Origin: a virus
Virus record (IMG/VR): IMGVR_UViG_3300020202_000078
Strand: one strand, 5' to 3'
Length of the DNA stretch: 64,000 nucleotides
Part shown: positions 4,189 to 63,521 of the stretch, piece by piece
Layout of the letters: every line of letters starts with the position of its first letter
How positions within the stretch are numbered: position 1 is the stretch's first letter
Notes under the pieces: model-generated
What the model saw: only the letters and a program-made list of their open reading frames with translations
Told to the model about the DNA's origin: nothing
Databases searched by the model: none
Translations under genes and position numbers: made by a program

Positions 4189-4815
4189 TCACGCGGCGGC
4201 CTGGAGATAGCGGGCCGTCAGCTCCTCGAGCTTGGCGTCCAGTTGGGCCAGAAAGTCGGTGACCTCGGCCTCGGCTTCAGCGATGAACGCGGGGTCACGG
4301 GGAACCCGCTGAATGAACAGCCGCATGGCCTCGGGAAGCCTGGGATCGTAGCTGGCGAAGTCGCACCACGCCCGTCCGGTGCAGGCCATCTGCCACTGCA
4401 TCTGCGTGACGTACTTCGCCGGGACCGCGCCGCCCAAGAGGGTGTCGAGGTGCGTGGCCGTGTTGGGGCACTTGATCTCCAACATGCCGTCTTCGCCGAC
4501 CAGGCCGTCGGGGCTAGCGCCGGTCATGGCGATCACCGGATGATCGACGAAGCCGACCTCGACCACGTCCACGTCAGCCATGAAGGCGTAGGCGGCGCGG
4601 GCCTCCGGTTCCTTGTCGGCTCCCCACTGCATCGCGGCGTTGGTGAAGCCTTCGGTCCTCACACCAGCGAGCCTTTCGGCGATCAGCTCTGCCATGTAGT
4701 TGGCTCGGCTGGCGCTGTAGCCGGTCTTCGTCTTGGCGATCACGTCCGCTACGCGGGAGGCGGTGACCTTGCCAAGCCGGGCGGCGAACCATTCGGGGGA
4801 GCCCTGGACGATCAT
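4189..4815 (-). CDS. YqaJ-like viral recombinase exonuclease (lambda Exo family)
   Basis: GSPEWFAARLGKVTASRVADV N-terminal motif of the YqaJ domain. Confidence 0.8.
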   Translation of the reverse strand: MIVQGSPEWFAARLGKVTASRVADVIAKTKTGYSASRANYMAELIAERLAGVRTEGFTNAAMQWGADKEPEARAAYAFMADVDVVEVGFVDHPVIAMTGASPDGLVGEDGMLEIKCPNTATHLDTLLGGAVPAKYVTQMQWQMACTGRAWCDFASYDPRLPEAMRLFIQRVPRDPAFIAEAEAEVTDFLAQLDAKLEELTARYLQAAA

Positions 4816-5693
4816 TTCGCGGCCTTTCGCTTGGCTTCGAGCGCCTTCATGACCTTGTCGAAGTCGCGGGCCGGGATCGCGGCGATACTTTCGGCCTTGA
4901 TGTAGGCCAGGAACCGCTTCCGATCGGCGCCCACGTCTTCCATGAGGGCCTGAACCTCGGCTTGCTGATCCTCCGAAAGGCCGGCGGGATCACCGCCGCT
5001 CTTGCCGTCATCGTCCTCGCCACGGCTGGTGATGTTCAGCAGGGCCATTGCGGTGTAGCGCTTGCCGTAGCTGGTGCTGGAGCCGACCGCCTGGACAGCG
5101 TTCTTGCTGCCGGTGCTGTCATGTGGAAGGGTGATTGTCGTCTCTTCCTGGTGGCCCGCGCTGTGCGACAAGATGCCGGTGACGATGATCTTGCCGTCGG
5201 CGGCGAGGCCCGTGCGGAAGGACAAGGCGAAGCCATGTTCGGACAGGGCCGGGCGGATCGCCTCGTTAATATCCTCCCACAGCGCGTAAGGGGTGGAGTG
5301 GCCCTGCTTGCCGTCCTTTGCGGGAACGATGATCCTGCCGCGCTCGGTGATGACCGGAAGCTTGGGTTGCATGGCGGCCAGCGCTGCGGCATACGCGGCC
5401 TTCGCGTCCCGGTCGCTGATGCGCTCGTACATGTCGAGCAACCGCCCCAGCTTCTCGACATCGGTGTTGGGGTCGGCGGCGGCCCGGCTGATGACCTCCA
5501 TGATGGTCGCCGGGTTGGTCTGGACGACCTCGGCGGCTACGGCGGTAGCGGTGTCTCGTTTGGCGACGGCGCCCATCGGGCTCTCCTCTTCGGGTTGATG
5601 TTCGATCTCGCAGGCCAGCAAAGACGGTTGAAACTCCGCGACGGTTTGGGGATCTTCGTAGGGCTGCATCGGCAGGCTCCGGTCTCTGGCCAT
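4812..5693 (-). CDS. erf: ERF-family single-strand annealing protein
   Basis: Adjacent to and coupled with the YqaJ exonuclease; ERF-like core with YGKRYT; acidic C-terminus. Confidence 0.6.
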   Translation of the reverse strand: MARDRSLPMQPYEDPQTVAEFQPSLLACEIEHQPEEESPMGAVAKRDTATAVAAEVVQTNPATIMEVISRAAADPNTDVEKLGRLLDMYERISDRDAKAAYAAALAAMQPKLPVITERGRIIVPAKDGKQGHSTPYALWEDINEAIRPALSEHGFALSFRTGLAADGKIIVTGILSHSAGHQEETTITLPHDSTGSKNAVQAVGSSTSYGKRYTAMALLNITSRGEDDDGKSGGDPAGLSEDQQAEVQALMEDVGADRKRFLAYIKAESIAAIPARDFDKVMKALEAKRKAAK

Positions 5694-10212: not shown

Positions 10213-10477
10213 GCTGAATGTCCTTTTCCAGGTGACGGCGGGTGAGGAAGCGGACGACCTTGCCGTCTTGCTCTGCGCACATGCGAATGGAGGCGGCGAC
10301 AGCGAGAAGCCCGAAGGTGGCGCGCAGCTCGAAGGCGGCCAGCTCTGCGTCCTCGGCTAGGTTGCCCAGGCGCGCTGTTGAAGGCCCGGACCGCATGGCG
10401 GCGACCTGCTCGGCGAGGGCCATGAGCTGGCGTTCGGCGCTCTCCAGGTGGAGTTCCAGCGCGGTCATGCGCGGCAC
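10199..10477 (-). CDS. Hypothetical protein
   Basis: ORF. Confidence 0.45.
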   Translation of the reverse strand: MPRMTALELHLESAERQLMALAEQVAAMRSGPSTARLGNLAEDAELAAFELRATFGLLAVAASIRMCAEQDGKVVRFLTRRHLEKDIQHDPR

Positions 10478-10788
10478 CCTTGATGAATGGCAGCGGGTCC
10501 AGCGACGGCGCGCGTGGCCCGGCGAACGCGGGCGATGGCGTCACGAACCCGCTGGCGGGTGGTGGCGGGCTTGATCGACATGGACAGGGGCCACCGATCC
10601 GCTTGCGCGCGACGGTGCGCATCGAGGCAGATGCGGACGCCCGCTAGCGCCTGCCGGTACTCGACGCCAGCCGGGCCAAGCATCCGAAGCGTGGAGCCGA
10701 TGAAGCGGTGACCGGCCTCGGTGTGCGGGATGATGGTGACCCCGCTGAGCGTGCGCTGCGGGGCGGGGGTGTCGGTGTCGAAGGGCAT
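10465..10788 (-). CDS. First gene of the early-left operon, hypothetical
   Basis: Immediately downstream of the OL operators. Confidence 0.5.
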   Translation of the reverse strand: MPFDTDTPAPQRTLSGVTIIPHTEAGHRFIGSTLRMLGPAGVEYRQALAGVRICLDAHRRAQADRWPLSMSIKPATTRQRVRDAIARVRRATRAVAGPAAIHQGCRA

Positions 10789-10813
10789 CGGTCTCTCCGG
10801 GGTATGGAGAGAC

Positions 10814-10855
10814 TATGCAAAACGCATATTACAGCGTCAAGTGCAAAATGCATAT
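10814..10855. promoter_or_regulatory. OL-like operator pair (TATGCAAAACGCATA palindrome and TGCAAAATGCATAT)
   Basis: Same motif recurs twice at 12336-12378 next to cI/cro. Confidence 0.65.
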
Positions 10856-10895
10856 TTCGTCATGATAGGGGTCGGACAGCGATTGGGAGGTAGGG

Positions 10896-11621
10896 TTGAT
10901 GATCTGGGCTTTGGTCGCCGCCGAGGTTGTTTGCGGATCACCAGCGGACATTCCGCCACTCCCGCAAACCCACACCGACTTGGTCGTGGAGCGAAACTAC
11001 AAGGCCGGGGAGGCCGTGACGGCGGTCGTTGGCCAAACGGTGGTGCGTGCCAAGAGCTTGTACGTCACTACCTCATACAGTTGGAGCTGGGTGACGGACC
11101 GCGATGTCACGATTACGTCCCAAAAGTTCACGCTCTTCCTGCCGGCCGGCAGCAAACTCAAGAGCATGGATCGCCGCCGGAGCGCGAGCGGTGCGGTTGT
11201 CGAAATCGCTGCAGCGCGGCAGTACAGCGACAGAACAATAGCGGCCCTTCAGCTCGACGGCGCCGGCTGTGTGGCGGATCATTACGCGTTCACTCTGCGC
11301 AATGGCGCCTGGCGCGAACACAAAAATCCGACACTGTTCACGCCGGAGAAGCCGAAGCTGACGCGGCAGCTGGTGGCGACGAAAGCGTCAGTCCCTGGGA
11401 CGTTGAACTACGAGATCATCTACGTAGGCCAAGATGGGCCGTCTATCCGGTTTGAGTATCGGGAATACACAGCTGACGACCTCGCTAGGCCGGCATTCTC
11501 GCAAACCTTGGCCTATCCGAAAGGTGCCCAGCGATTCCGTTTTCGCGACGTTGCCTTTCAAGTTCTCAGTCTGAAAGATGACGAGATAACAGTTCGGATC
11601 ACGCCGTCAGAAGGTGATTAG
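10896..11621 (+). CDS. Secreted or lipoprotein-like moron of unknown function between OL and cI (candidate superinfection exclusion or lysogenic conversion gene)
   Basis: N-terminal signal-like MMIWALVAAEVVCGS; position equivalent to rexAB/sieB. Confidence 0.55.
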   Translation: MMIWALVAAEVVCGSPADIPPLPQTHTDLVVERNYKAGEAVTAVVGQTVVRAKSLYVTTSYSWSWVTDRDVTITSQKFTLFLPAGSKLKSMDRRRSASGAVVEIAAARQYSDRTIAALQLDGAGCVADHYAFTLRNGAWREHKNPTLFTPEKPKLTRQLVATKASVPGTLNYEIIYVGQDGPSIRFEYREYTADDLARPAFSQTLAYPKGAQRFRFRDVAFQVLSLKDDEITVRITPSEGD

Positions 11622-12311
11622 CGGACGCTGTTGAATAGGTCGCACTGTGTAAGACGAGACCACCACACCGATGATTTCCGGGCCGTCATCCGCGTCTCGA
11701 ACGCTATCGATCCGAATGGGTTCTTGGAACGCCGGGTCGCTGGACCTTGGCCACAGGGCGACGCCCCGCTTTTCCTTGACCACTTCCTTGAGGGTTGTCT
11801 CCACAAGCCCTCCGCGACGGCGGCGCACCACAACGTGGTCACCCTCGCGCACGCCGATTTCTGCAGCTGGGCACACCACCACCATCGTCCCGTCGGGATA
11901 ATGCTGGTCCATGGAAGGTCCACGCACCCGCAAGGCGAACAACTGGGCGCCCTCAAAGCCCGCTAGATGGATCGGGATGACTTCCGGGTCGTCGGGCTCG
12001 TCGAAGACTTCAGCGAACACGCCAGCCTGTATCACGCCGATCACGGGCACCATTCGCGTGACCGCACGCATCCCGACTGGCGGAGACGGGGGCGGCATCT
12101 CGTCCAGGTCGCCGCGTCCGTAAAGGAGCCACTCGGGGGAGACGCGGAAGAACTTGCCGTAGCGCTCGGCCCGGCCAGCCGGGATCCCCCGCAACTTCCC
12201 CTCATGCTGGCTGTAAGTCGGGTAGGGGACGCCCATCGCCTCGGCCGCTGCCTTAGCGCTAGCGTAGCCTGCGCGCTCTCGCGCCAGCCGCAGCCGATCC
12301 CCCGGTTCCAT
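11607..12311 (-). CDS. cI: cI/LexA-like repressor (XRE HTH plus S24 peptidase domain)
   Basis: HTH LARERAGYASAKAAAEAMGV; C-terminal S24 region with GPSMDQHYPDGTMVVV. Confidence 0.8.
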   Translation of the reverse strand: MEPGDRLRLARERAGYASAKAAAEAMGVPYPTYSQHEGKLRGIPAGRAERYGKFFRVSPEWLLYGRGDLDEMPPPSPPVGMRAVTRMVPVIGVIQAGVFAEVFDEPDDPEVIPIHLAGFEGAQLFALRVRGPSMDQHYPDGTMVVVCPAAEIGVREGDHVVVRRRRGGLVETTLKEVVKEKRGVALWPRSSDPAFQEPIRIDSVRDADDGPEIIGVVVSSYTVRPIQQRPLITF

Positions 12312-12335
12312 GGCATCACGCCTTAGATCATCGGA

Positions 12336-12378
12336 ATATGCAAAAGGCAGTTGCGAAGCGGGTCTGCAAAATGCATAT
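12336..12378. promoter_or_regulatory. OR-like operator pair (ATATGCAAAAGGCAG; TGCAAAATGCATAT) between cI and cro
   Basis: Motif shared with OL. Confidence 0.65.
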
Positions 12379-12386
12379 TCACCGTC

Positions 12387-12617
12387 ATGCGCACCCATCA
12401 GGACATCATCCGGGACGCCGGGCCGCAGAAAATCCATGAGGCGGTCGGGTTTACGGGCCAGCTGAACACCGTCTTGTCGTGGCGGCAGCGAAACAGCATC
12501 CCGCGCGAGCACTGGGCGGCCCTGGCCGACGCGAAGATCGCGAGCCTCAAGGAGTTGGCGCTGGCTGCGCCGCCCCGGAAGCGGCGCTCCGCGTCACCGT
12601 CGCAGGTGGCCGCCTGA
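12387..12617 (+). CDS. cro: Cro-like small HTH regulator
   Basis: Divergent from cI; P22 Cro-like topology (..LSWRQRNSIP..). Confidence 0.55.
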   Translation: MRTHQDIIRDAGPQKIHEAVGFTGQLNTVLSWRQRNSIPREHWAALADAKIASLKELALAAPPRKRRSASPSQVAA

Positions 12618-12726
12618 TGCCCCTCGCTCCACACACCTCGCCTCGCGCTGTCCATGCCCAATTTGTGGCGCAGCCAAGCCGGGCAGTCACGTTCCATCGC
12701 CCGCCAAAATTGAACGGTGAAGCACA

Positions 12727-13197
12727 ATGACCAAGGTCCGCGCTCCCTCAACCTTCGAAGACGCCATCGACCGGATCGTTGGGCGCATCACCATTGCTAA
12801 GGCGGCCGAGGTCGTCGGCAAAGGCGAACGGGTGATCCGGTACTGGTCGGACCCTGACGCCAATCGGTCGCCGTCTATCGAAGAAGCGGCGCTGCTGGAT
12901 GCGGCCTATCTGGAGGCCGGAGGCGGCGAACCGCCGATCTTGGCAGTCTATCAACTCCTCCTCGACCGCAGGGTAACCCCACCGGCCGATAGCGCGGAAC
13001 TCGCCAAGGTCAGTGGGGTGCTTGCTAAGGAGGTGGGGGAGGGGCTGGCCGCCTTGTTCAAGGCCTCTCAGCCCGGATCAACGCAGGCTGATCGGATGAT
13101 CGCTGAGCGGGAGCTGACAGACGTCGGGGAGGCTCTGAACTCCAGCCTTCGCGTCCTTGGCTCCCCTGCGAACGTGACGCCGCTGAGGTCCGCATGA
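12727..13197 (+). CDS. Putative CII-like transcriptional regulator
   Basis: HTH-like ITIAKAAEVVGKGERVIRYWS; position after cro. Confidence 0.4.
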   Translation: MTKVRAPSTFEDAIDRIVGRITIAKAAEVVGKGERVIRYWSDPDANRSPSIEEAALLDAAYLEAGGGEPPILAVYQLLLDRRVTPPADSAELAKVSGVLAKEVGEGLAALFKASQPGSTQADRMIAERELTDVGEALNSSLRVLGSPANVTPLRSA

Positions 13198-23322: not shown

Positions 23323-24993
23323 GTGGAGTGGTCCACCGCCTGCGTCGACTGGCAAGACCGGATTGTCGCCAGGCGCTCGCTGATCCCGTCACCACTGTTT
23401 GCCGATGAGGCCCGCGAGGCGCTGGAGGTCTTCAAGTCGCTGCGGATCGTGGACGCGCCCGGCAAACCGACTTTCGGTGAGGCGTGCGATCGGTGGGTGT
23501 TCGACTTCGTCTCATCGATCTTCGGCGCATATGACGCGGAGACGGGCAAGCGCCTGATCCGCGAGTTCTTCCTCCTGATCTCGAAGAAGAACTCCAAGTC
23601 CACCATCGCGGCCGGAATCATGCTCACCGCGCTGATCCGCAACTGGCGGCACTCGGCGGAACTTCTGATCCTGGCGCCGACCATCGAGGTTGCCCAAAAC
23701 GCCTACAACCCGGCCCGGGACATGGTGAAGGAGGACGAGGAGCTGACCGACCTCCTGCATGTGCAGGACCACCTTCGAACGATCACGCACCGCGAGAACG
23801 GCGCGATGCTCAAAGTGGTGGCGGCCGACACCGATACGGTCTCCGGCAAGAAGGCGGGTCACATCTTCGTCGACGAGCTGTGGGTGTTCGGCAAGCGCGC
23901 CAAGGCCGATGCAATGCTCCGCGAGGCGACCGGCGGCTCTGTGTCGAGGCCGGAAGGGTTCATCATCTGGGCGAGCACCCAATCGGACGAAGAGCCGGCC
24001 GGGGTGTTCAAGACCAAGCTGGACTATTTCCGCGATGTGCGGGACGGCAGGATCGAGGACCCCCGCAGCTTGCCGGTGATCTATGAGTTCCCGGAGGCGA
24101 TGGTTGAATCGGGCGAATATCTGAAGCCTGAGAACTTCTACATCACGAACCCGAACCTTGGCCGGTCGGTCGATCAGCGCTGGCTTGAGGATGAACTTCG
24201 CAAGGTCAGGGACGCGACCGGTGGCGAGAAGCAGGTCTTCCTCGCCAAGCACCTCAACATCGAAATCGGCCTGAAACTATCGAACAACCGATGGGCCGGT
24301 GCGGACTATTGGGAGGCCGCCGCCGACCCGACGCTTACGCTGGATGAGCTACTTCGGCGATCGGAGGTCTGCACGATTGGCCTGGACGGTGGCGGTCTGG
24401 ATGACCTTTTCGGCTTGGCGGTCGTCGGCCGATGCAGGGAAACCCGAACCTGGCTTCTGTGGAACCGGGCCTGGGCGCATGACGACGTCCTTCAGCGGCG
24501 CAAGGACATCGCCAGCAAGCTGAAGGACTTCGAGCGCGACGGCGACCTGGTGATCTGCAAGGACCCGATGGCGCCGATCATCCAGGCGGCGGAAATCGTC
24601 GAGCGCGTATATCTGGCCGGCCTACTGCCGGAAAAGGACGGGGTCGGCCTGGACCCGGCCGGCGTCGCGACGCTGGTTGACGAGTTGGAAGACAGGGGCG
24701 TCGGGATCGGCCTGCAGGTCGCGGTGCGGCAGGGATATGCGCTTTCTCCCGCATCCTGGGGATCTGAGATCAAATTGAAGAATGGCTCCCTGAAGCACGG
24801 TGGCCGACCGATGATGGCCTGGTGTGTCGGAAACGCGAAGGTCGAGGTTCGCGGCGGCGCGGTTGTCATCACCAAGCAGTCGGCGGGACGGGCCAAGATC
24901 GACCCGCTGGTGGCGTCGTTCAACGCGATGATGCTGATGAGCCGGAACCCGTCGGCGAAGTCGGCTCCCAAATACCAAATGATCGTAATCTAG
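23323..24993 (+). CDS. terL: Terminase large subunit
   Basis: Walker A-like ISKKNSKST; Walker [12 protein letters not shown]-terminal nuclease domain; GTG start. Confidence 0.85.
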
Positions 24994-62355: not shown

Positions 62356-62580
62356 TCAGGGACTAGGGGGCTCAGTCAAAGCCTGCCGAAGGTCGGCAAC
62401 CTCTTCCAGCCGCCAGGCAATCTCCTCCTGCAGATCTTCCAATCGGGCGCGCATGGCGGCCTCGATAGTGGGGTACTCGCCGTTGATCCCGGCGGGGATG
62501 TCGTGGATGTAGCCCGCGTCGCTCGATATGAAGGTCGCCGGTTCATCCTCGTGGTGTTGCCAAGTCCAGGTCAGTTCCAT
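62356..62580 (-). CDS. Hypothetical protein
   Basis: ORF. Confidence 0.35.
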   Translation of the reverse strand: MELTWTWQHHEDEPATFISSDAGYIHDIPAGINGEYPTIEAAMRARLEDLQEEIAWRLEEVADLRQALTEPPSP

Positions 62581-63237: not shown

Positions 63238-63261
63238 CTTCCGATGGCTCCCCGGGCAGGA
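63238..63261. repeat. attR: attR core
   Basis: Exact match to 187-210. Confidence 0.8.
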
Positions 63262-63320
63262 CTCGAACCTGCGACCCGGCGGTTAACAGCCGCCTGCTCT
63301 ACCAACTGAGCTACCGAGGA
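63245..63320 (-). tRNA. tRNA-Asn (GTT anticodon)
   Basis: Reverse complement tcctcggtagctcagttggtagagcaggcggctgttaaccgccgggtcgcaggttcgagtcctgcccggggagcca; 76 nt; cloverleaf with a CUGUUAA anticodon loop. Confidence 0.9.
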
Positions 63321-63521
63321 ACATCGCTTCGGAAGGAGGCGGCGTATACGCCGGGGGCGGCGGCGGTGCAAGCCGTGCGGGGCGGAAAAAAGAGCCCGGC
63401 GGATGAGGCCGGGCTGTTCAAAGTCTGTGATGGTGGGGTGTCTTCAAGGAAGACGTCCGGAAGGTCGAACTTTATGGTTAACGAGAGGTGAATCGCGCGC
63501 GTTGAATCGCAAGGTGAGGGA

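What the first reader, a model, noticed from the sequence alone, without database searches (positions are those of the whole stretch)
10789..12400. Immunity region: four copies of a TGCAAAAYGCATAT operator split into OL and OR pairs, with a secreted-protein moron in between
Operator-like sites lie at 10814-10828 (perfect palindrome TATGCAAAACGCATA), 10842-10855, 12336-12350 and 12365-12378, with ~28-bp spacing within each pair. This matches a lambda-like OL/OR architecture, with the S24 repressor (11607-12311, minus strand) divergent from a Cro-like gene (12387-12617). Between OL and cI lies a convergent 241-aa protein with a signal peptide (10896-11621). This is the position rexAB/sieB-type exclusion genes occupy, so the gene is probably expressed from a lysogenic promoter and is a candidate superinfection-exclusion or lysogenic-conversion factor.
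Basis: partly seen in the sequence, partly recalled or inferred. Interest (0 to 1): 0.55.

Follow-up and report, generated by a model that had tools for sequence, protein, structure and literature searches.

The report
Prophage immunity switch with repressor-linked envelope protein
This is an ordinary lambda-style on/off switch of a prophage in a Caulobacter-like bacterium, and the gene wedged next to its repressor belongs to a large, unnamed family of exported phage proteins that repeatedly sit beside repressors and probably act at the cell surface to keep other phages out.

Summary
The core TGCAAAANGCA occurs four times in 64 kb (0.07 expected), only at the four stated sites. The pairs have 26-bp spacing and bracket an HTH+S24 repressor (11607-12311, minus) and a convergent ORF (10896/10899-11621).

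Corrections:
- Only three sites fit TGCAAAAYGCATAT.
- Site 1 is not a perfect palindrome.
- Both pairs point the same way.

A Phenylobacterium prophage with a 39%-identical repressor has the same four sites at the same positions. This is strong evidence that they are operators.

The ORF is real. It is an all-beta protein (pLDDT 93) with no match in the PDB or BFVD, Pfam, NCBIfam or PADLOC. It belongs to PHROG 1353 (unknown function), with 2,523 cluster representatives, mostly lipoproteins and including Fels-2 STM2726. Eleven divergent members lie next to an S24 repressor, either co-transcribed downstream of it or convergent. In six phages with different operator sequences, operators bracket repressor plus this gene.

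It is a candidate superinfection-exclusion factor acting at the envelope. Its function is untested.

In this phage the only promoter-like element upstream is overlapped by an exact copy of the PR operator. Repression by CI is therefore at least as likely as lysogenic expression.

The switch is ordinary. The protein family is the interesting part.

The parts
10465..10788 (-). First gene (107 aa, no family match) of the leftward early operon. This operon runs on to ERF (4812-5693) and YqaJ (4189-4815).
   Evidence: ORF list; identical gene calls on metagenome contigs; Pfam for ERF and YqaJ.
10812..10840 (-). Candidate PL promoter: -35 TTGACG (10840-10835), 17-nt spacer, -10 CATAGT (10817-10812). 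Site 1 covers the spacer and -10.
   Evidence: It is the only sigma-70-like site the scanner found in 10400-12900, with 0.3 expected. The cgtcaa/ggtcaa element is also present in the OL regions of L023, L009 and L038.
10813..10829 (.). Operator site 1 (OL-a): CTATGCAAAACGCATAT.
   Evidence: It aligns with L023 OL-a, TGATGCAAAATGCATTC.
10839..10855 (.). Operator site 2 (OL-b): AAGTGCAAAATGCATAT. Its 15-nt core is identical to that of site 4.
   Evidence: L023 OL-b is AAGTGCAAAATGCATCA.
10829..10856 (+). Candidate rightward promoter for the 240-aa gene: TTACAG (10829-10834), 16-nt spacer, CATATT (10851-10856). It matches 8 of 12 positions, which is below the scanner's threshold. Its spacer and -10 lie inside site 2.
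   Evidence: Read from the sequence. It has the same -10 and the same operator overlap as the PR candidate. Inferred, not shown.
10884..10889 (+). Ribosome-binding site GGGAGG, 6 nt before TTG 10896 and 9 nt before ATG 10899.
   Evidence: Sequence. In-frame stops at 10863-10868 exclude any earlier start.
10896..11621 (+). Gene for a 240/241-aa all-beta protein with a hydrophobic N-terminus. It belongs to the repressor-linked lipoprotein family (PHROG 1353) and is convergent with cI, overlapping it by 15 bp.
11607..12311 (-). CI-type repressor of 234 aa, with an N-terminal HTH and a C-terminal S24 autoprotease domain. The sequence shows the Ala-Gly site (IQAG), the Ser motif (GPSM) and a Lys (LKEV).
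   Evidence: Pfam PF00717 E 1.2e-14 and HTH_31; phrog_4 transcriptional repressor E 1.9e-30; sequence.
12335..12363 (-). Candidate maintenance promoter for cI: -10 CATATT (reverse complement of 12335-12340) inside site 3, with a poor -35 abutting site 4.
   Evidence: Read from the sequence. Inferred by analogy with lambda PRM; the scanner did not detect it.
12336..12352 (.). Operator site 3 (OR-a), the degenerate site: ATATGCAAAAGGCAGTT.
   Evidence: The same degenerate form, TGATGCAAAAGGCACTT, is conserved at the same place in L023.
12362..12378 (.). Operator site 4 (OR-b): GTCTGCAAAATGCATAT.
   Evidence: L023 OR-b is TAGTGCAGAATGCATCA.
12351..12379 (+). Candidate PR promoter: TTGCGA (12351-12356), 17-nt spacer, CATATT (12374-12379). 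Site 4 covers the spacer and -10. The predicted transcription start is at about 12386-12387, so the cro mRNA would be leaderless.
   Evidence: Sequence. There is no Shine-Dalgarno sequence before ATG 12387. The same arrangement occurs in L023.
12387..12617 (+). Cro-like gene of 76 aa, divergent from cI.
   Evidence: Position and gene calls. The MRTH(Q/E)(D/Q)II N-terminus is conserved in L023. The HTH match is only weak: Phage_CI_repr E 0.054.

Best explanation
Positions 10789-12400 are the immunity region of a lambda-like prophage in a Caulobacterales-type host.

**The switch**
- A LexA-like, self-cleaving CI repressor (11607-12311, minus) binds four sites of 11-17 bp with the core (A)TGCAAAA(N)GCA(T).
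- The sites form two pairs 1.5 kb apart, with 26 bp centre to centre within each pair.
- At the right pair, strong site 4 covers the spacer and -10 of PR, which drives a probably leaderless cro. Site 4 also sits about 42 bp upstream of the cI maintenance start. Weak site 3 covers the cI promoter's -10.
- This is the logic of lambda OR1/OR2/OR3 compressed into two sites.
- At the left pair, site 1 covers the leftward early promoter PL.

**The gene between OL and cI**
- It encodes a 240-aa all-beta protein that is exported or membrane-anchored.
- It belongs to a large uncharacterised family (PHROG 1353), most of whose members are lipoproteins and which temperate phages carry next to their repressor.
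- I think it acts in the envelope to block adsorption or DNA entry of incoming phages. That would make it a superinfection-exclusion or receptor-masking factor, working like Ltp, Cor or Llp without being related to them.
- In this phage, any promoter with a leader containing the ribosome-binding site must overlap site 2. The gene is therefore under CI control. Most likely it is repressed in the lysogen and switched on together with PL and PR on infection or induction, as T5 llp is. In relatives it is co-transcribed with cI.

**Shown versus inferred**
- Shown: the sites, their non-random placement, their conservation with a homologous repressor, the gene family, its fold confidence and its linkage to repressors.
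- Inferred: repressor binding, promoter positions, export, the exclusion function and the direction of CI control.

**Sub-confidences**
- Immunity region with operators: about 0.9.
- Extracytoplasmic location: about 0.75.
- Exclusion function: about 0.5.
- CI-repressed in this phage: about 0.55.
For: **Operators**
- Three exact 14-mers against 0 expected.
- Four copies of the 11-mer core against 0.07 expected, all in the two intergenic regions.
- Spacing of 26 bp in both pairs.
- The scanner's only promoter hit is overlapped by site 1.
- Prophage L023 (Phenylobacterium) has a repressor 39% identical overall and much closer in the HTH domain. It has the same core at four homologous positions, including the conserved degenerate AAAAGGCA site, with the same 26-bp spacing and a homologous cro start.

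**Repressor and genome layout**
- S24 plus HTH.
- Lambdoid layout: integrase, YqaJ/ERF early-left operon, immunity region, replication genes, terminase.

**Host**
- The Caulobacter sRNA CC0196 family lies in the right flank.

**Protein**
- Coding potential and homologues.
- 2,523 representatives at E <= 1e-3.
- Invariant YREY...ARPAF.Q.L.Y motif.
- 106 of 153 members have a strict lipobox, and others have type I signals.
- AF2 model with pLDDT 93.2, all beta.
- All 53 sampled members match phrog_1353.

**Linkage to the repressor**
- Convergent arrangement in the window, L009, L038 and L041.
- Same strand, immediately downstream, in L006/L007, L035, L039, L042, L016, L017 and L023.
- Operators bracket repressor plus gene in L006, L009, L038, L041 and L039.
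- In L023 the cI-lipoprotein operon ends in an intrinsic terminator just before OL.
- More distant members lie at classic moron sites: the Fels-2 TO region, between tail genes, or next to an integrase.

**Precedent**
- Ltp is a lipoprotein of the lysogeny module that blocks DNA injection (PMC3952083).
- Phage lipoproteins exclude phages that use the same receptor (PMC11893012).

**CI control**
- Site 2 has the same 15-nt core as site 4 and contains the same CATATT hexamer.
- L009 and L041 likewise have an operator directly upstream of a -10-like TAGATT/TAGATC pointing at the gene.
- Fels-2 STM2726-2728, an operon that contains a tum/dinI-like gene, is listed as responsive to an SOS-inducing mutagen (PMC2225428).
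Against: - No binding, transcription or phenotype data exist.
- The PR, cI-maintenance and rightward OL promoters match only 8 of 12 consensus positions. The scanner did not call them, and Caulobacterales promoters differ from the E. coli consensus.
- The window protein lacks a basic n-region and a canonical lipobox, and has a Glu in its hydrophobic stretch. Export of this particular protein is therefore uncertain.
- No PADLOC model matches.
- Many distant family members are chromosomal with no conserved neighbours. The ancestral role may therefore have nothing to do with phages.
- Co-transcription with cI in seven relatives argues for lysogenic expression, which is in tension with the CI-repressed reading for this phage.
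Confidence: 0.55

Rival explanations
1. The gene is a moron expressed constitutively in the lysogen, from a promoter that is independent of CI or activated by it. It protects the lysogen (superinfection exclusion) or changes its surface (lysogenic conversion).
For: - In seven divergent relatives the gene directly follows the repressor on the same strand, with a gap of 1-16 bp or an overlap. In L023 the operon ends in a terminator before OL, exactly like lambda cI-rexAB.
- The gene has lower GC than its neighbours: 58.8% against 65-71%.
- If the start lay near 10863, site 1 would be centred at about -42. This is the geometry by which lambda CI activates PRM.
Against: - The gene is convergent with cI here, so it cannot use the cI promoter.
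- Only 28 bp separate site 2 from the ribosome-binding site, so any promoter must overlap site 2. Site 2 is an exact copy of the operator that must be occupied to keep PR off.
- No independent promoter or terminator was found.
Confidence: 0.3
2. The gene's transcription, rather than its product, is what matters in the convergent phages. A CI-repressed promoter at OL fires through the gene into the 3' end of cI, and this antisense transcription reinforces commitment to lytic growth.
For: - The convergent arrangement, with overlapping stop regions (4-15 bp) and no terminator between the genes, recurs in four phages with three distinct operator types (L009 and L041 share a TGAC..GTCA-type site).
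- An operator overlaps a promoter-like element that points at the gene.
Against: - The protein is under strong purifying selection, with an invariant motif across about 25% identity.
- It also occurs co-oriented with cI and at unrelated moron sites, so the product clearly has a function of its own.
- There is no direct evidence for read-through.
Confidence: 0.08
3. The protein is an envelope lipoprotein with a housekeeping or fitness role unrelated to phage defence, such as binding, adhesion or envelope maintenance. Phages carry it as cargo that benefits the host.
For: - The family is large (2,523 representatives). Many members are chromosomal, without phage neighbours or conserved partners.
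- No defence-system model matches.
Against: - The members closest to the window protein are almost all beside phage repressors.
- More distant phage-borne members lie at moron hot spots known for exclusion genes, such as the P2/Fels-2 TO region.
- Known phage-borne lipoproteins in such positions are typically exclusion factors.
Confidence: 0.2
4. The repeats are not repressor operators. They are either a chance or duplicated sequence, or binding sites for another protein.
For: Binding has not been tested. The sites are poorly palindromic, at 8-10 of 17 positions.
Against: - Four copies against 0.07 expected, confined to the two regulatory gaps.
- The sites are conserved site by site in a second prophage whose repressor DNA-binding domain is homologous, while phages with unrelated repressors have different repeats in the same places.
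Confidence: 0.03

Closest known systems
Bacteriophage lambda immunity region (cI, cro, OL/OR, rexAB)
   Same: - HTH+S24 repressor divergent from a small cro-like gene.
- Operator clusters on both sides of the repressor that overlap PL, PR and the cI promoter.
- One weak operator over the cI promoter.
- An accessory gene between cI and OL.
- The early-left recombination operon and integrase to the left, and replication and late genes to the right.
   Different: - Two operators per cluster instead of three.
- Both clusters have the same orientation rather than being mirror images.
- Spacing is 26 bp.
- The operator core is (A)TGCAAAANGCA(T) with an asymmetric A-tract.
- cro is probably leaderless.
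- The accessory gene is convergent with cI, unrelated to rexA/rexB, and encodes an exported rather than a cytoplasmic or inner-membrane abortive-infection protein.
Ltp of Streptococcus thermophilus phage TP-J34 (lysogeny-module lipoprotein that blocks DNA injection)
   Same: An exported, lipid-anchored protein family encoded in the lysogeny module beside the repressor, scattered among phage and bacterial genomes like a moron (PMC3952083).
   Different: - No sequence or fold relationship. The window protein is all beta, about 240 aa, and from Gram-negative hosts.
- The window copy lacks a canonical lipobox.
- Prophage-state transcription and an exclusion phenotype are shown for Ltp and untested here.
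Cor (phi80/N15) and Llp (T5) receptor-masking outer-membrane lipoproteins; Lpp of mEpimmI phages
   Same: These are phage lipoproteins of Gram-negative hosts that stop phages using the same receptor. Llp is made early in lytic growth, which matches the predicted operator-controlled expression here (own knowledge for Cor and Llp; PMC11893012 for Lpp).
   Different: Those proteins are much smaller and lie elsewhere in the genome (own knowledge; PMC11893012 states only the location of the mEpimmI Lpp genes). No homology was detected. The target of the present family is unknown.
PHROG 1353, including Fels-2 STM2726
   Same: The window protein and all 53 sampled relatives match this profile. STM2726 aligns over its full length (hhalign 98.6%) and has the lipobox and the YREF..ARAAF motif.
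   Different: - PHROG 1353 has no assigned function.
- STM2726 lies in the P2-type TO moron region after a tum/dinI-like gene, not beside the repressor.
- The window protein matches the profile only over its C-terminal 70 residues (E 1.4e-5).

Membership tests
Lambdoid CI/Cro immunity region | Repressor with an N-terminal HTH and a C-terminal S24 (LexA-like) self-cleavage domain. | tested here: met
   PF00717 E 1.2e-14 over the full profile, HTH_31 E 1.5e-4; phrog_4 transcriptional repressor E 1.9e-30. The Ala-Gly (IQAG), GPSM and LKEV motifs were read from the sequence.
Lambdoid CI/Cro immunity region | Small divergent Cro-type DNA-binding protein. | tested here: inconclusive
   Position, size and conservation in L023 all fit. 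The only family match is Phage_CI_repr HTH at E 0.054, and there is no PDB sequence match.
Lambdoid CI/Cro immunity region | Repeated operator sites in two clusters flanking the repressor gene and overlapping the early promoters. | tested here: met
   The same is seen with different sequences in L006, L009, L038, L039 and L041.
Lambdoid CI/Cro immunity region | Operator sequence co-varies with the repressor's DNA-binding domain. | tested here: met
   L023, with a homologous repressor, has the same core at four homologous positions. Unrelated repressors have other repeats.
Lambdoid CI/Cro immunity region | Three operators per cluster in mirror-image order, as in lambda itself. | tested here: not met
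   There are only two sites per cluster, and all four sit on the same strand.
Lambdoid CI/Cro immunity region | Repressor binds the sites, and RecA-stimulated cleavage induces the prophage. | not testable with these tools
   This needs EMSA or footprinting and induction experiments.
rexAB / sieB-type exclusion genes | Homology to RexA, RexB or SieB. | tested here: not met
   No Pfam, NCBIfam or PADLOC match for the window protein or its 52 aligned relatives.
rexAB / sieB-type exclusion genes | Located between cI and OL and co-transcribed with cI. | tested here: not met
   The location criterion is met. However, the gene is convergent with cI in the window. Co-orientation is met only in relatives.
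Prophage superinfection-exclusion lipoproteins (Ltp, Cor, Llp) | Lipoprotein signal peptide with a lipobox. | tested here: not met
   The window N-terminus MIWALVAAEVVCGSP has no [LVI][ASTVI][GAS]C motif. By contrast, 106 of 153 family members have a strict lipobox.
Prophage superinfection-exclusion lipoproteins (Ltp, Cor, Llp) | Sequence or fold homology to a characterised member. | tested here: not met
Prophage superinfection-exclusion lipoproteins (Ltp, Cor, Llp) | Blocks adsorption or DNA entry when expressed alone. | not testable with these tools
   This needs plating, adsorption and injection assays.
PHROG 1353 (unknown function) | Significant match to the family profile, similar length, and the conserved C-terminal YREY...ARPAF.Q.L.Y motif. 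| tested here: met
   Window protein E 1.4e-5. All 53 of 53 relatives match, best E 1.8e-17. The motif is invariant.
Moron (autonomous transcription unit added to a phage genome) | Composition deviates from the neighbouring genes. | tested here: met
   GC is 58.8% against 64.8-71.3% for the flanking genes.
Moron (autonomous transcription unit added to a phage genome) | Own promoter and own terminator. | tested here: inconclusive
   The only promoter-like element matches 8 of 12 positions and lies inside operator site 2. There is no terminator on the + strand, and the gene overlaps cI by 15 bp.

The most novel reading that the evidence does not exclude
The gene is not a passive passenger. It has been recruited repeatedly to the repressor's side in two fixed architectures. 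In the convergent one (this window, L009, L038, L041), an operator-controlled promoter at OL expresses an envelope protein of a new fold at the moment CI falls. This masks the receptor for the burst, and the transcript also runs antisense into cI, which couples exclusion to commitment to lysis.
Probability: 0.12. Interest if true: 0.65.

Novelty: new variant of a known kind. Interest (0 to 1): 0.45.

Why it matters
The switch itself adds little. It is a compact two-plus-two-operator version of the lambda design in a Caulobacterales prophage, with a defined operator sequence that is conserved in a Phenylobacterium prophage.

The useful result concerns the accessory gene:
- It belongs to a large family (2,523 representatives at 50% identity, PHROG 1353, Fels-2 STM2726).
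- The family has no Pfam or NCBIfam model, no name and no match to a solved fold.
- Its phage-borne members are tied to the repressor gene or to classic moron sites.

If it is an exclusion factor, it would be a widespread new class of receptor- or entry-blocking proteins in Proteobacteria. It would then be a handle for finding phage receptors in Caulobacter-like hosts. It is cheap to test: clone one gene and plate phages.

Tried and rejected
**Family and structure searches that found nothing**
- Pfam, NCBIfam and PADLOC scans of the protein and 52 relatives gave nothing.
- A PDB sequence-profile search gave nothing.
- Foldseek against BFVD gave nothing.
- The afdb50 library was not available.

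**Searches that needed a second attempt**
- The word-indexed homologue search suggested only 5 relatives. The exhaustive HMM search corrected this.
- The search for related loci with the 53-sequence alignment failed for lack of a conserved stretch. It was rerun with the 5-sequence alignment.

**Checks that led nowhere**
- I looked for conserved neighbours among chromosomal family members and found none.
- Contexts of three distant members were too short to be informative.
- Source names for ten members were only 'hypothetical protein'.
- A terminator-like hairpin on the minus strand inside the gene (11347-11327) is not above chance: 1 found against 2.1 expected.
- Rfam found no known RNA in the region.
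- The alternative ORF 10721-11455 was rejected as non-coding, with GC3 of 0.53.
- An upstream start for the gene is excluded by in-frame stops at 10863-10868.
- A literature search for STM2726 found only an operon list in a microarray paper.
Full report
**1. The observation**

The stated sites are present.
- The 14-mer TGCAAAAYGCATAT is exact at 10816-10829, 10842-10855 and 12365-12378, against 0.00 expected in shuffles.
- The fourth site (12339-12352, TGCAAAAGGCAGTT) differs at three positions.
- The 11-nt core TGCAAAANGCA occurs exactly four times in the 64-kb window. All four are on the + strand and at these places, against 0.07 expected.
- Start-to-start distances are 26, 1497 and 26 bp.

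Read as 17-mers, the sites are:

| Site | Coordinates | Sequence |
|---|---|---|
| 1 | 10813-10829 | CTATGCAAAACGCATAT |
| 2 | 10839-10855 | AAGTGCAAAATGCATAT |
| 3 | 12336-12352 | ATATGCAAAAGGCAGTT |
| 4 | 12362-12378 | GTCTGCAAAATGCATAT |

They approximate ATATGCA-AAA-TGCATAT. Each has one good and one poorer half-site and is self-complementary at only 8-10 of 17 positions.

The two pairs are direct copies of one another, not mirror images.

**2. The genes**

- The minus-strand ORF from ATG 12311 to 11607 has a full-length Peptidase_S24 match (E 1.2e-14), an N-terminal HTH and a match to the PHROG 'transcriptional repressor' family (E 1.9e-30). Its sequence shows the LexA/CI hallmarks IQAG, GPSM and LKEV (interpretation from established knowledge of S24 proteins).
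- The divergent 76-aa gene (12387-12617) is Cro-like by size and position. It has only a weak HTH match (E 0.054).
- Gene calls on identical metagenome contigs agree with all three genes. They start the middle gene at ATG 10899, giving 240 aa.
- The wider window is a lambdoid prophage. Its order is integrase (5-1516), a leftward YqaJ/ERF early operon, the immunity region, VRR-NUC/DnaA-C/HNH genes, and the large terminase at 23323-24993.
- A Caulobacter sRNA family (CC0196) and a tRNA-Asn in the right flank point to a Caulobacterales host.

**3. Are the repeats operators?**

There are three lines of evidence.
- *Placement.* The scanner's only sigma-70-like hit in 2.5 kb is a leftward promoter, TTGACG-17-CATAGT (10840-10812). 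Its spacer and -10 lie in site 1.
- *A homologous system.* The Phenylobacterium sp. VNQ135 prophage (L023) has a repressor 39% identical overall and far more similar in the DNA-binding domain. It carries the same core at four homologous positions with the same 26-bp spacing. This includes the same degenerate AAAAGGCA form at the site next to the repressor gene, and a homologous cro start, MRTHEQII.
- *Phages with unrelated repressors.* In the same two places they carry their own repeats: CCGATAATATCGG in L006 and L039, TGAC(A/G)(A/T)(A/T)(A/T)CGTCA in L009 and L041, and TCGCG..CGCGAC in L038.

I regard the operator assignment as about 90% secure, although binding is untested.

**4. How the switch is probably wired (inference)**

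*Right pair*
- TTGCGA (12351-12356), 17 nt, CATATT (12374-12379) is a plausible PR. Site 4 covers its spacer and -10.
- The predicted start is at about 12386-12387, so cro (ATG 12387, no Shine-Dalgarno) would be leaderless. The same holds in L023. Leaderless mRNAs are common in Caulobacter (own knowledge).
- Leftward, a CATATT hexamer (reverse complement of 12335-12340) lies inside weak site 3, with a poor -35 abutting site 4.
- Site 4 is therefore centred at about -42 and site 3 at about -16 of the cI promoter. This is the geometry of lambda OR2 and OR3 on PRM.

*Left pair*
- The geometry repeats: site 1 is at about -16 of PL and site 2 at about -42.

These promoters match only 8 of 12 consensus positions and were not called by the scanner. 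This wiring is a model.

**5. The gene between OL and cI**

- *It is coding.* GC3 is 0.69 in frame, against 0.53 in the overlapping alternative ORF. It has lower GC (58.8%) than its neighbours.
- *The family is large.* The word-indexed search found only five relatives. An exhaustive profile search found 2,523 representatives at E <= 1e-3 and 247 at <= 1e-30, nearly all 215-260 aa.
- *It has a conserved motif.* The family has an invariant C-terminal motif, YREY..(D)..ARPAF.Q.L.Y.
- *It is unnamed.* No Pfam, NCBIfam or PADLOC model covers it. All sampled members match PHROG 1353, 'unknown function'.
- *Most members are exported.* Of 153 members, 106 have a strict lipobox, and many others have relaxed lipoboxes or type I signals.
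- *The window copy is atypical.* The window protein and its two closest relatives keep only a short hydrophobic N-terminus without a lipobox. 'Exported or membrane-anchored' is therefore a family-level inference for this copy.

**6. Linkage to the repressor**

Every close relative for which context could be fetched lies beside an S24 repressor.
- *Convergent, with overlapping ends:* the window, L009, L038 and L041.
- *Same strand, immediately downstream:* L006/L007, L035, L039, L042, the IMG/VR contigs L016 and L017, and L023.

In L023 the operon cI-lipoprotein-orf-orf ends in a canonical intrinsic terminator just before OL. This is the lambda cI-rexA-rexB layout.

More distant members sit at other moron sites:
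- next to an integrase (L036);
- between structural genes of 'Microcystis phage yong1'-type phages;
- between tail genes in Moraxella phage Mcat28;
- after a DUF4258/HTH gene pair (toxin-antitoxin-like by my reading), ahead of the tape-measure gene, in Acinetobacter phage Ab1656-2;
- in the TO region of Fels-2, as STM2726 (hhalign 98.6%).

Still more distant members are chromosomal, with no conserved neighbours.

**7. What it most likely does**

The evidence is that the protein is exported, that temperate phages carry it in the lysogeny module or at moron hot spots, and that it evolves quickly outside one motif. Its most likely site of action is the envelope, and its most likely target is incoming phage.
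- Ltp of TP-J34 is the closest functional precedent. It is a lipoprotein of the lysogeny module, transcribed in the prophage, that blocks DNA injection (PMC3952083).
- The Lpp proteins of mEpimmI phages exclude phages that use the same receptor (PMC11893012).
- Cor and Llp are further precedents (own knowledge).

There is no homology to any of these, so this is 'works like', not 'is a member of'. I put the exclusion function at about 0.5.

**8. When it is expressed in this phage**

- The gene is convergent with cI and cannot use the cI promoter.
- In-frame stops at 10863-10868 fix the start at 10896 or 10899, and the ribosome-binding site is at 10884-10889.
- Only 28 bp separate the site 2 edge (10855) from the ribosome-binding site. 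Any promoter with a normal leader must therefore have its -35 or spacer in site 2.
- The one promoter-like element (TTACAG-16-CATATT, 10829-10856) has the same -10 and the same operator overlap as PR. The 15-nt core of site 2 is identical to that of site 4.
- If CI occupies site 4 to silence PR, it should also occupy site 2.
- L009 and L041 show the same pattern, with an operator directly upstream of TAGATT or TAGATC pointing at the gene.
- In Fels-2, the STM2726-2728 operon, which includes a tum/dinI-like gene, is listed among operons responding to an SOS-inducing mutagen (PMC2225428; the direction of change is not given in the passage I read).

I therefore favour (about 0.55) expression on infection or induction, as for T5 llp, over constitutive lysogenic expression (about 0.3). 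In the co-oriented relatives, lysogenic co-transcription with cI is the natural reading. Both regimes suit a receptor-masking or entry-blocking protein.

**9. Verdict**

The switch is a new member of a very well known kind. The accessory gene is a new, sequence-unrelated variant of a known theme: an exported exclusion candidate in the lysogeny module. It belongs to a large, unnamed family with a confidently predicted but unmatched fold. The finding is moderately interesting and directly testable.

Noticed in passing
window 63391-63450 (-) and 63248-63320 (-): There is an Rfam match to Caulobacter sRNA CC0196 (41.1 bits, gathering threshold 35) next to a tRNA-Asn. The right flank therefore looks like Caulobacterales chromosome, which suggests the host lineage.
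   Followed up: partly
window 31300-31379 (+) and 62454-62541 (+): ARAGORN calls a tRNA-Trp inside the phage structural region and an 88-nt tRNA-Ile. Neither reaches Rfam's tRNA gathering score. They may be false positives or unusual tRNAs.
   Followed up: partly
window 11327-11347 (-): A terminator-like hairpin followed by TTTTTGTGTT lies on the cI strand, 260 nt past the cI stop and inside the coding sequence of the convergent gene. It could end the cI transcript, but such hits are not above chance here: 1 found against 2.1 expected.
   Followed up: no
L043 (Fels-2, NC_010463.1 24604-25335): Fels-2 STM2726 is a full-length member of the same family (hhalign 98.6%, with a lipobox LTGC). It lies in the P2-type TO moron region just after a DinI/TumB-like gene. 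STM2726-2728 is listed as an operon responsive to the mutagen MX in PMC2225428.
   Followed up: partly
L023 5810-5870 (Phenylobacterium sp. VNQ135 prophage): A strong intrinsic terminator (GCCCCGCC-loop-GGCGGGGC followed by TTTTTCGTTT) closes a four-gene operon (cI, lipoprotein and two small ORFs) immediately before the OL operator pair. This is a close structural analogue of lambda cI-rexA-rexB-tImm.
   Followed up: partly
L010 (Microcystis phage vB_MaeS-yong1, MT855965.1 5418-6871): The family member there is followed by a second, convergent lipoprotein gene (MQPRFIGLLAAMVVSGC...) and preceded by a DDE transposase, all inside the head-gene region. The locus has 66% GC.
   Followed up: no
window 12727-13197 (+): The 156-aa gene after cro matches only phrog_38866 (unknown function, E 4.5e-25). 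It occupies the position where lambda has cII, and no HTH was detected.
   Followed up: no
L009 662-1243 (-) and L041 2819-3283 (-): In two of the convergent-type phages, the first gene of the leftward operon is itself an HTH_3 (XRE-type) protein of 154-193 aa. It may be a second regulator at OL.
   Followed up: no
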